A DNA stretch of 64,000 nucleotides from Escherichia coli. Lineage in GTDB: Bacteria; Pseudomonadota; Gammaproteobacteria; Enterobacterales; Enterobacteriaceae. The stretch lies in the NCBI RefSeq assembly GCF_003334335.1, contig NZ_QOWQ01000009.1, one strand, 5' to 3'. A program made the position numbers and the translations under genes. This document shows positions 3,086 through 6,204 of this stretch, piece by piece (the first letter of the stretch is position 1; every line of letters starts with the position of its first letter). Below the pieces are notes generated by a model that saw only the letters and a list, made by a program, of their open reading frames with translations, made no database searches and had not been told where the DNA came from.

Positions 3086-4223
3086 TCAGGCGTCACGCGG
3101 TAACCCTTTTTCAATCACCCGAACCAGACGCTGTTTTTTCGGCAATTGCACTTCGACTATGCACGCATTTCGTCTCTCTATTTGCTGCGCAATCGCCCAC
3201 GCTATGTGCTCATCGAGAAGTGGGTGCTCACCTTTACGACTTTCCAGCGCTGTCAAAATCGTTTCATCCCAAGGGGCATTGCCTAATGCTACGGCGATAT
3301 TACGCAGCCAACGCAGGTGACCAATACGACGAATCGCCGATCCTTCCGTGACTTTTAAAAACTTCTCTTCGCTCCAGGCGAATAACTCAATGAGTTCCGG
3401 TGCGTGTAGCGGCTTACGCGGGCTGAAATCCTCTTCTGTGGTGAGTTGTGAATAGCGATTCCACGGGCAGATAAGCTGGCAGTCATCGCAACCGTAAATA
3501 CGGTTTCCCATTAACGGTCGCAACTCTTCCGGGATCGCCCCTTCAAGTTCGATGGTGAGATAAGAGATACAGCGGCGAGCATCGACGGTATATGGCTCGA
3601 CGATGGCACCGGTCGGGCAAATCGTCATACAGGCCACGCATTTGCCGCATCCTTCCTCGACTGGTTGATCCACGGGCAGCGGAATATCGACCAGCAATTC
3701 GCCTAAAAAGAAGAACGAACCGGCCTCGCGATTGAGGATAAGTGAGTGCTTACCTGTCCAGCCGAGCCCAGCTTTTTCAGCTAACGGGCGCTCGAGAATA
3801 GGCGCAGAATCGACAAACGGTCTAAAATTCAGCGAAACACAATGTTGCTGAATCATCTCGCCCAGCTTTTTGAGTCGGTTGCGCAGAAGTTTGTGATAGT
3901 CACGGCCCAGCGCATAACGGCTAACATAGCCGAGTTTGGGGTTTTTCAGCGTGCTGGCAAATGCGGCGTTAGCAGGAAGGTAATTCATCCGCACGCTGAT
4001 CACGCGCAGCGTACCGGGCAATAACTCATGAGGGCGAGCGCGCAGCATACCGTGACGTGCCATCCAGTCCATTTCGCCGTGGTATTGTTTGTCCAGCCAT
4101 GCTTGCAGTTTGGGCTCGGACTCGCTGAGATCGGTATCGGTAATACCTACCTGCTGAAAGCCCAGTTCCAGCCCCCACTGTTTAATTTTTTGCGCTAACT
4201 GATTGAGATCGAGGGGCTCTGAC

Positions 4224-4225
<2 letters not shown>
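3086..4225 (-). CDS. queG: epoxyqueuosine reductase (4Fe-4S, cobalamin-dependent)
   Basis: ORF 3086..4333; [33 protein letters not shown] and Cys clusters CGKCVACMTICP / CDDCQLICP; start trimmed to ATG at 4225 (379 aa). Confidence 0.9.

Positions 4226-6204
<1,979 letters not shown>

What the first reader, a model, noticed from the sequence alone, without database searches (positions are those of the whole stretch)
4223..4226. Divergent queG and nnr share a CATG containing both start codons
With the starts that reproduce the expected protein lengths (379 aa and 515 aa), the queG ATG (minus, 4225-4223) and the nnr ATG (plus, 4224-4226) overlap by 2 nt. Each promoter and ribosome-binding site must therefore lie inside the other gene's first codons, a constraint that may couple their expression. 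The ORF track also allows an upstream TTG (4203) for nnr.
Basis: seen in the sequence. Interest (0 to 1): 0.3.

Follow-up and report, generated by a model that had tools for sequence, protein, structure and literature searches.

The report
Overlapping divergent queG and nnr starts
Two E. coli genes on opposite strands really do begin inside the same four bases (CATG), but this is the standard annotation, and published work already shows that their promoters sit inside each other's coding sequence and that their mRNA 5' ends overlap and pair.

Summary
CATG at 4223-4226 holds the queG ATG (minus strand) and the nnr ATG (plus strand). These starts give 379 and 515 aa, exactly as RefSeq and K-12 MG1655 annotate them.

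The window is the E. coli chromosome and is identical to MG1655 across 3000-6300. The junction is kept in 79 of 80 other Enterobacteriaceae species and in Pantoea.

Published transcript maps place the queG start site near 4249, inside nnr codon 9, with its extended -10 in nnr codons 12-14. They place the nnr start site at 3836, inside queG codon 130. The two mRNAs are therefore complementary over about 413 nt.

Two independent studies recovered double-stranded RNA from this stretch, including RNase III-sized duplexes spanning the CATG. A 2025 survey lists queG-nnr among 16 core divergent "excludons" of E. coli.

My comparative analysis adds that three of the four longest invariant DNA blocks in the two genes are the CATG/ribosome-site block and the two -10 elements.

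The upstream TTG is not the nnr start. The downstream ATG (codon 6) cannot be fully excluded in E. coli.

Reciprocal regulation is plausible but has not been shown for this pair. Already known; low interest.

The parts
4223..4226 (.). CATG shared by the queG start codon (4225->4223, minus) and the nnr start codon (4224-4226, plus).
   Evidence: Kept in 79 of 80 other Enterobacteriaceae species and in Pantoea. It lies inside a 13-nt block, 4221-4233, that is at least 97% invariant.
3086..4225 (-). queG coding sequence (epoxyqueuosine reductase, 379 aa).
   Evidence: ORF and annotation. Homologues of 379 aa carry the Pfam domains QueG_DUF1730 and Fer4_16.
4224..5771 (+). nnr (yjeF) coding sequence, 515 aa. 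It is the first gene of the nnr-tsaE-amiB-mutL-miaA-hfq... superoperon.
   Evidence: Operon description from Conway et al. 2014.
4211..4216 (+). nnr Shine-Dalgarno GAGGGG, 7 nt before ATG 4224. It lies inside queG codons 4-5.
   Evidence: Duplex with the anti-SD is -7.2 kcal/mol; only about 9% of random 20-mers reach -6 or lower. The hexamer is GAGGGG in 76 of 81 sequences.
4257..4265 (-). Extended -10 of the queG promoter (TGGTATACT on the minus strand), inside nnr codons 12-14.
   Evidence: An 11-nt block at 4257-4267 is at least 97% invariant. It lies 7-8 nt upstream of the mapped start site. The published PqueG deletion removes 4255-4285, as its primers show.
4249..4250 (-). queG transcription start, giving a 24-25 nt leader with no Shine-Dalgarno.
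   Evidence: Conway operon map as quoted in the supplement of PMC7373196: the divergent overlap ends at 4,392,114 (U00096.2), which is window 4249. The -10 position predicts 4250. The leader pairs weakly with the anti-SD (-2.2 kcal/mol). It is less structured than 198 of 200 shuffles.
3823..3828 (+). -10 hexamer TAAAAT of the nnr promoter, inside queG codons 133-135.
   Evidence: It lies in a block invariant in all 81 sequences (3819-3829; at least 97% over 3819-3831). It is 7-8 nt upstream of the mapped start site.
3836..3836 (+). nnr operon transcription start, giving a 388-nt leader antisense to queG codons 1-130.
   Evidence: Conway map: plus-strand promoter at 4,391,701 (U00096.2) with terminator at 4,408,049. 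The coordinate offset was checked against the sequences of the p19-captured reads.
3836..4249 (.). Overlap of about 413 nt between the two divergent transcripts; the zone of double-stranded RNA.
   Evidence: Lybecker dsRNA MS-212 maps to window 3852-4235. The p19 clusters E-284 and S-361 map to window 3889-4244. Duplex reads of 21-22 nt include CAUGACGGACCAUACAAUGAAG and its complement.
4239..4241 (+). Second in-frame ATG (nnr codon 6), a possible alternative start.
   Evidence: Weak Shine-Dalgarno, -3.2 kcal/mol. Not a start codon in 25 of 81 sequences. It is the only usable start in four Kosakonia species.
4203..4205 (+). Upstream in-frame TTG, rejected as the nnr start.
   Evidence: No Shine-Dalgarno (+1.3 kcal/mol). 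It is CTA in E. coli 536. It is TTG TAA in five species and not TTG in four others.

Best explanation
This is a genuine, long-annotated head-to-head overlap of two E. coli coding sequences. queG makes the last enzyme of queuosine-tRNA synthesis. nnr repairs damaged NAD(P)H and is the first gene of the nnr-tsaE-amiB-mutL-miaA-hfq superoperon.

Because no DNA lies between the two genes, every expression signal of each gene is written inside the coding sequence of the other.
- The nnr ribosome-binding site occupies queG codons 4-5.
- The queG promoter (extended -10) occupies nnr codons 12-14 and fires from about 4249, producing a 24-nt unstructured leader with no Shine-Dalgarno.
- The nnr promoter sits about 390 nt inside queG and fires from 3836.

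The promoters therefore face each other, and the two mRNAs are perfectly complementary over about 413 nt, including both start codons.

Shown: the anatomy, its conservation, the mapped 5' ends, and double-stranded RNA cut to RNase III-sized pieces over this stretch.

Inferred: that polymerase collision and mRNA pairing make the two genes damp each other, in the manner of a divergent excludon. I consider some such effect likely. I consider the 2-nt codon overlap itself a frozen by-product of tight packing rather than a selected device, because five of 81 lineages have moved the nnr start without losing the arrangement.
For: Anatomy and annotation.

Start codons:
- nnr ATG 4224 has the only good Shine-Dalgarno.
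- CATG is kept in 80 of 81 sequences. The ATG is in frame with nnr in 76, and in 21 of those codon 6 is not a start codon.
- S. arizonae lost the G of CATG but has ATG as the very next codon.
- queG has no other start codon between the mapped transcription start and its conserved N-terminal helix.

Promoters and transcripts:
- The Conway map, quoted in the PMC7373196 supplement, gives 5' ends at window 3836 (+) and 4249 (-).
- Each lies 7-8 nt downstream of a -10-like hexamer.
- The published PqueG deletion covers 4255-4285.

Dual use of sequence: the four longest runs of at least 97% invariant columns in 2.7 kb include the CATG block and both -10 elements. Codon shuffling expects 0.10 runs of 11 nt or more against 4 observed, and none of 5000 shuffles reached 4.

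Double-stranded RNA: Lybecker MS-212 and p19 clusters E-284 and S-361. [quoted passage not shown]

Excludon listing: queG-nnr is one of 16 divergent excludons found in at least half of 58 MG1655 RNA-seq samples.
Against: No direct evidence for either start codon was found. The supplements I could search (TetRP, TRAINSPOTTER) do not mention these genes, and the Ribo-RET tables are not held.

Four Kosakonia species use the codon-6 ATG, so E. coli might use it too, or use both.

The 5' ends come from one RNA-seq operon map quoted second-hand. I could not read a dRNA-seq or Cappable-seq table for this site.

The simple sigma-70 scan found no promoter in 3700-4800, because both -35 elements are poor.

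No experiment shows that either gene affects the other. The PqueG deletion strain was assayed only for datA RNA and replication timing, and both were unchanged.

Overlapping 5' ends occur in 35% of divergent E. coli operons, so the overlap alone does not imply regulation.
Confidence: 0.75

Rival explanations
1. In E. coli, Nnr translation really starts at the second ATG (4239, Met6). The coding sequences would then not overlap and would be 13 nt apart. The first ATG would be only the complement of the queG start.
For: In four Kosakonia species a +1 insertion puts the CATG ATG out of frame, so nnr must start at the codon-6 ATG. Three of the four CATG bases are fixed by the queG start codon anyway, so their conservation says little about nnr. 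Residues 1-11 lie outside the conserved Nnr domains.
Against: ATG 4224 has GAGGGG at ideal spacing (-7.2 kcal/mol) against -3.2 for ATG 4239. Codon 6 is not a start codon in 21 species where ATG 1 is in frame, and in eight species ATG 1 is the only start codon available. When S. arizonae lost G4226, a new ATG sits in the next codon rather than at codon 6 alone.
Confidence: 0.15
2. The shared CATG and the mutually complementary initiation regions are a selected switch. Pairing of the two mRNAs hides both start codons and the nnr Shine-Dalgarno. This would make QueG and the nnr superoperon mutually exclusive, linking queuosine-tRNA maturation to the tRNA-modification and Hfq genes downstream.
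For: The junction block is nearly invariant from Enterobacteriaceae to Pantoea, including synonymous sites. Duplex reads cover the CATG and the Shine-Dalgarno. queG sits divergently next to tsaE, with short spacers, in six more distant lineages, which suggests a long-standing link.
Against: The invariance is explained by ordinary dual coding: a start codon, a ribosome site and a leader laid over codons. Five of 81 lineages moved the nnr start with no sign that the locus broke up. The distant lineages have spacers rather than overlaps. No expression data show reciprocity.
Confidence: 0.15
3. The overlap is an annotation artefact on the queG side, and QueG starts elsewhere.
For: The minus-strand ORF stays open up to GTG 4333 (415 aa), with another GTG at 4270. 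Some Salmonella and Citrobacter rodentium records annotate a 384-aa QueG from a second CATG 15 nt upstream.
Against: The mapped queG transcript starts at about 4249, downstream of both GTGs. The upstream codons are not conserved as starts. Most homologues are 379 aa. No start codon lies downstream before the conserved N-terminal segment LDLNQLAQKIK.
Confidence: 0.03

Closest known systems
Divergent excludons (the Listeria mogR/flagellar locus; the E. coli set from ExcludonFinder, NAR 2025, PMC12288877)
   Same: Neighbouring genes on opposite strands whose 5' transcript ends overlap, giving antisense RNA and RNase III substrates. queG-nnr is itself listed among the 16 core divergent excludons of E. 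coli MG1655.
   Different: Classic excludons overlap through long untranslated leaders across an intergenic region, and one gene has been shown to repress the other. Here there is no intergenic region, the coding sequences themselves touch, and reciprocal repression has not been tested.
Other E. coli divergent pairs with abundant 5'-overlap double-stranded RNA (rsd-nudC, rhlB-trxA, hemC-cyaA, asd-yhgN; PMC7373196 Table 2)
   Same: They belong to the same class in the same data sets: p19-captured 21-22 nt duplexes, Lybecker dsRNA and Conway overlapping operons.
   Different: Where I could check neighbouring pairs in K-12, the start codons are separated by an intergenic spacer of 88-354 nt. queG-nnr has a spacer of -2.
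Head-to-head (divergent) overlapping genes as classed in surveys of prokaryotic gene overlaps (e.g. Fukuda et al. 2003, cited in PMC3887535)
   Same: Opposite-strand genes sharing their 5' termini.
   Different: From my own knowledge, this class is the rarest kind of overlap and many cases are start-codon miscalls. Here both starts are backed by comparative evidence.
Classical back-to-back bidirectional promoter regions (e.g. ilvY-ilvC, argECBH, cited)
   Same: Divergent transcription of adjacent genes from closely spaced promoters.
   Different: In those cases the promoters lie between the genes. Here each promoter lies beyond the other gene's start codon, so the polymerases converge.

Membership tests
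Head-to-head overlapping coding sequences | Two ORFs on opposite strands share nucleotides at their 5' ends. | tested here: met
   ATG 4224-4226 (+) and ATG 4225-4223 (-) share 2 nt. RefSeq and MG1655 annotate the same geometry.
Head-to-head overlapping coding sequences | Both annotated start codons are the ones used in the cell. | tested here: inconclusive
   Comparative and Shine-Dalgarno evidence favours both. No start-site profiling or N-terminal peptide data could be retrieved. The Kosakonia species use codon 6 for nnr.
Divergent excludon | Divergent neighbours whose 5' transcript ends overlap. | tested here: met
   Published 5' ends at window 3836 (+) and 4249 (-), a 413-nt overlap. Each is preceded by an invariant -10 block. 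The pair is listed by ExcludonFinder in at least 50% of 58 samples.
Divergent excludon | The overlap forms double-stranded RNA that RNase III processes. | tested here: met
   From papers read here: Lybecker dsRNA MS-212, and p19-captured 21-22 nt duplex reads on both strands over window 3889-4244.
Divergent excludon | Expression of one gene lowers expression of the other. | not tested
   No data were found for this pair. The PqueG deletion strain was assayed only for datA RNA and replication timing.
Back-to-back bidirectional promoter | Both promoters lie in the DNA between the two start codons. | tested here: not met
   There is no DNA between the starts. The mapped start sites lie inside the partner's coding sequence.
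Noncontiguous operon (yjeV-queG-nnr) | Same-strand genes are co-transcribed across an opposite-strand gene lying between them. | not tested
   Listed as such by ExcludonFinder. Read-through from the glyVXY promoter into datA is documented. I did not examine whether it reaches nnr.

The most novel reading that the evidence does not exclude
The mutual complementarity of the two translation-initiation regions is maintained by selection as a reciprocal, RNase III-dependent switch. It would set the balance between QueG (queuosine-tRNA) and the nnr-tsaE-...-miaA-hfq superoperon. The ancient divergent pairing of queG with tsaE seen in distant bacteria would be the same regulatory link in a looser form.
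Probability: 0.12. Interest if true: 0.45.

Novelty: already known. Interest (0 to 1): 0.15.

Why it matters
As it stands, this is a tidy textbook example of how far bacterial genes can be packed. Two promoters, a ribosome-binding site and two start codons are all written inside coding sequence, and synonymous sites are frozen as a result.

It matters in practice to anyone who engineers this locus. Any deletion or tag at the 5' end of queG or nnr also hits the other gene's promoter or ribosome site. nnr heads the operon that carries mutL, miaA and hfq.

If the two mRNAs really repress each other, that would link queuosine-tRNA maturation to that operon. Nobody has tested this.

Tried and rejected
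Searches that gave nothing:
- The consensus sigma-70 and terminator scan of 3700-4800 found no sites. Both promoters have weak -35 elements, so I relied on mapped 5' ends and conservation.
- Genome-wide transcription-start tables. The Conway supplement is not held. The Cappable-seq GTF is truncated when stored. SMRT-Cappable-seq has no mention of these genes. Thomason 2015 is not held.
- Start-codon evidence. The TetRP and TRAINSPOTTER supplements do not mention these genes. The Ribo-RET supplement and the journal version are not held.
- A homologue search with Nnr timed out, so I used QueG instead.
- Rfam at a relaxed threshold over 2400-6400 gave only the tRNAs and sub-threshold noise.
- RNA folding of the nnr initiation region is no more stable than shuffles (z = -0.29).

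Ideas rejected:
- TTG 4203 as the nnr start.
- GTG 4270 or GTG 4333 as the queG start, because both lie upstream of the mapped transcript start.
- The 60-aa plus-strand ORF at 3842-4024, which starts 6 nt after the nnr transcript start, as a real gene. Its ATG is poorly conserved. It lies in the antisense frame that is naturally poor in stop codons.
- A sigma-32-like reading of the invariant block at 3741-3754, because the spacing is too short.

Full report
**1. The observation**

The window is the E. coli chromosome. A 701-nt probe around the site matches all 5426 complete E. coli genomes, and window 3000-6300 is identical to K-12 MG1655.

The sequence at 4220-4229 reads tgaCATGacg.
- ATG 4224-4226 on the plus strand opens a 515-aa [18 protein letters not shown]...
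- CAT 4223-4225 is the ATG of a 379-aa minus-strand [12 protein letters not shown]....
- The two start codons share 4224 and 4225.

RefSeq/PGAP and the MG1655 record annotate exactly this: queG 4392928-4394067 (-) and nnr 4394066-4395613 (+).

A CATG tetramer alone means nothing. The unusual part is two real coding sequences meeting in it. In the corresponding 50 kb of K-12, the nine other divergent gene pairs are 88-354 nt apart (median 217).

**2. Are these the true start codons?**

I fetched the locus from 80 other species of Enterobacteriaceae, one genome per species, and located both N-termini in each.

The junction GAGATCGAGGGGCT[C/G]TGA CATG ACGGACCAT is almost invariant. Counting the window, there are 81 sequences:
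- 80 have CATG.
- In 76 the plus-strand ATG is in frame with nnr.
- S. enterica subsp. arizonae has CATT ATG. The G is lost, but an ATG is the very next codon. Subsp. diarizonae has the intermediate CATG ATG.
- Four Kosakonia species have a +1 insertion after CATGACGGACCATAG. There the CATG ATG opens only a 20-21 codon out-of-frame ORF, and nnr must begin at the ATG that corresponds to E. coli codon 6.

Candidate nnr starts in E. coli:

| Candidate | Anti-SD pairing | Comparative evidence |
|---|---|---|
| ATG 4224 | -7.2 kcal/mol, GAGGGG 7 nt upstream | Hexamer is GAGGGG in 76 of 81 |
| ATG 4239 (codon 6) | -3.2 kcal/mol | ATG in 32, GTG in 16, TTG in 8, not a start codon in 25 of 81 |
| TTG 4203 | +1.3 kcal/mol | CTA in E. 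coli 536; followed by TAA in five species |

Twenty-one of the 25 sequences without a start codon at position 6 have ATG 1 in frame. In eight species ATG 1 is the only start codon available. About 9% of random 20-mers reach -6 kcal/mol or lower in the same pairing test.

For queG, the only upstream in-frame start codons are GTG 4270 and GTG 4333. Both lie upstream of the mapped mRNA 5' end. No start codon lies downstream before the conserved N-terminal segment.

I conclude that the queG start is secure. The nnr start at 4224 is probable, about 0.8, but not proven. I found no start-site profiling or N-terminal peptide data.

**3. Where the expression signals are**

The supplement of Huang et al. 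2020 (PMC7373196) quotes the Conway et al. 2014 operon map for this locus.
- A plus-strand promoter lies at 4,391,701 (U00096.2), with a terminator at 4,408,049.
- The divergent overlap runs 4,391,701-4,392,114, which is 413 nt.

The coordinate offset is window = U00096.2 - 4,387,865. I verified it with the sequences of the p19-captured reads. This places the nnr transcript start at window 3836 and the queG transcript start at 4249.

Each start lies 7-8 nt downstream of a -10-like element:
- TAAAAT at 3823-3828 on the plus strand.
- TGGTATACT, an extended -10, at 4265->4257 on the minus strand.

Independently, the datA study (PMC10950094) built a PqueG deletion whose primers remove window 4255-4285.

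In terms of codons:
- The queG promoter occupies nnr codons 12-21.
- The queG mRNA starts in nnr codon 9 and has a 24-nt leader with no Shine-Dalgarno. The first 91 nt of this mRNA fold less stably than 198 of 200 shuffles, which fits initiation that depends on lack of structure.
- The nnr promoter is deep inside queG, at codons 133-135, giving a 388-nt leader antisense to queG codons 1-130.

The consensus promoter scan missed both promoters because their -35 elements are poor.

**4. Conservation shows the dual use**

In a 2.7-kb alignment of queG plus nnr from 81 sequences, third codon positions are at least 97% conserved in only 8-9% of codons. The longest runs of at least 97%-conserved columns are:

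| Coordinates | Length | Identity |
|---|---|---|
| 3741-3754 | 14 nt | Unexplained |
| 4221-4233 | 13 nt | The CATG block |
| 3819-3831 | 13 nt | The nnr -10; 3819-3829 is invariant in all 81 |
| 4257-4267 | 11 nt | The queG -10 |

Shuffling codons within each gene gives on average 0.10 runs of 11 nt or more. None of 5000 shuffles reached the observed four.

One caveat applies. One of the six peptide patterns used to fetch the loci was MTDHTMKK. Many fetched loci lack that peptide, so they came in through other patterns.

**5. Evidence that the two mRNAs meet**

- Lybecker et al. recovered a double-stranded RNA, MS-212, classed "Divergent, queG, yjeF", at window 3852-4235.
- Huang et al. captured RNase III-sized duplexes with the p19 protein over window 3889-4244, in both exponential and stationary phase.
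- Individual duplex reads include CAUGACGGACCAUACAAUGAAG and its complement, which span both start codons. Another is AUUGAGAUCGAGGGGCUCUGA, which covers the nnr Shine-Dalgarno.

ExcludonFinder (NAR 2025) lists queG-nnr among 16 divergent excludons present in at least half of 58 MG1655 RNA-seq samples. It also lists yjeV-queG-nnr as a noncontiguous operon.

Conway et al. report that 136 of 388 divergent operons have overlapping 5' ends, with a mean overlap of 168 nt. They describe the yjeF (nnr) operon as the most complex in their data: 14 genes and 8 promoters. Transcript overlap as such is therefore common in E. coli.

**6. How it most likely works**

Shown: the anatomy, its conservation, the mapped 5' ends and the double-stranded RNA.

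Inferred: the facing promoters cause polymerase collisions over 413 bp. Pairing of the two mRNAs hides both start codons and the nnr ribosome site and recruits RNase III. Each gene would therefore damp the other.

No experiment has measured this for the pair. The PqueG deletion strain was examined only for datA RNA and replication timing, and both were unchanged.

I regard the 2-nt codon overlap itself as a frozen consequence of tight packing rather than a device. Five of 81 lineages have shifted the nnr start by a single substitution or a 1-nt insertion while keeping everything else.

**7. Wider distribution**

Pantoea dispersa (Erwiniaceae) keeps CATG with an in-frame nnr ORF, MRDQAIEANARSLPHSVW. 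The gene caller chose a later ATG there.

In six more distant lineages, with QueG 50-62% identical, queG lies divergently next to tsaE with no nnr between. The gaps between called starts are about 8 to 90 nt, except that in one locus the called genes overlap by 6 nt.

The divergent pairing of queG with the tsaE-amiB operon is therefore old. The overlap with nnr is a feature of Enterobacteriaceae and Erwiniaceae.

**8. Verdict**

The phenomenon is already annotated and already catalogued as an overlapping-transcript (excludon) locus. My additions are comparative:
- support for the start codons;
- rejection of TTG 4203;
- the natural variants in S. arizonae and Kosakonia;
- the demonstration that synonymous sites are frozen exactly at the mapped signals.

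Interest is low.

Noticed in passing
window 3741-3754: AGTGAGTGCTTACC is the longest nearly invariant run (14 nt, at least 97% in 81 sequences) in the whole queG+nnr alignment. It encodes QueG residues G-K-H-S-L with frozen synonymous sites, some using uncommon codons. It lies 82-95 nt upstream of the nnr transcript start and matches no signal I could name. An 8-of-9 DnaA-box-like TTATCCTCA lies just beside it on the minus strand (3733-3741), but that part is not invariant.
   Followed up: partly
window 3050-3103 (+), overlapping the queG 3' end at 3086-3103: K-12 annotates a 17-aa gene, yjeV, that converges on queG and overlaps it by 18 nt. The replication-control locus datA (DnaA boxes and an IHF site) lies just upstream, between the glyVXY tRNA genes and queG. 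Read-through from the tRNA promoter crosses it (PMC10950094). ExcludonFinder lists yjeV-queG as a convergent excludon.
   Followed up: partly
window 5743-5771: nnr and tsaE overlap by 29 nt on the same strand (tsaE ATG 5743, nnr stop 5769-5771). An 8-nt nearly invariant run, GTTAACCC at 5715-5722, lies just upstream of the tsaE start. The tsaE Shine-Dalgarno is weak (-4.0 kcal/mol).
   Followed up: no
L016 and L018 (Salmonella diarizonae and arizonae), position equivalent to window 4238-4241: Salmonella has a second CATG 15 nt downstream of the first (AACATGAAG). It offers in-frame alternative starts for both genes at once. This explains why many Salmonella and Citrobacter rodentium records annotate QueG as 384 aa instead of 379.
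   Followed up: partly
L050, L055, L061, L063 (Kosakonia), about 1485-1560 or 2986-3060: A +1 insertion makes the conserved Shine-Dalgarno plus CATG ATG open a 20-21 codon out-of-frame upstream ORF (MTDHRNEEK...). This ORF overlaps the real nnr start at +16. It may be a case of translational coupling or upstream-ORF control.
   Followed up: partly
L085-L090 (metagenome contigs with QueG 50-62% identical): queG lies divergently next to tsaE-amiB, without nnr, in all six distant lineages examined, and the spacers are short. Three tRNA-modification genes (queG, tsaE and, in E. coli, miaA) are thus persistently clustered.
   Followed up: partly
window 3842-4024 (+): A 60-aa ORF antisense to queG begins 6 nt after the mapped nnr transcript start. 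Its ATG is poorly conserved across species, and the frame is one that is naturally poor in stop codons. It is probably not a gene.
   Followed up: partly
window 4171-4175 and 4213-4217: GCCCC and GGGGC are both nearly invariant. They can pair in the nnr leader and would sequester the nnr Shine-Dalgarno in the predicted fold. The same pairing appears in the queG mRNA. The fold is no more stable than shuffles, and there is no covariation to test.
   Followed up: partly
window 3819-3829: The nnr -10 is preceded by C at -13 (CTAAAAT), a feature associated with sigma-S promoters. The p19 double-stranded RNA cluster is about three times more abundant in stationary than in exponential phase (1832 against 579 RPM). 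This hints at stationary-phase use of the promoter.
   Followed up: no
window 1-2680 and beyond about 20000: The window is not MG1655 throughout. It falls out of register with K-12 before about 2680 (around the glyVXY tRNA array) and after about 20000, because of insertions or deletions. It is identical to MG1655 in 3000-6300.
   Followed up: no
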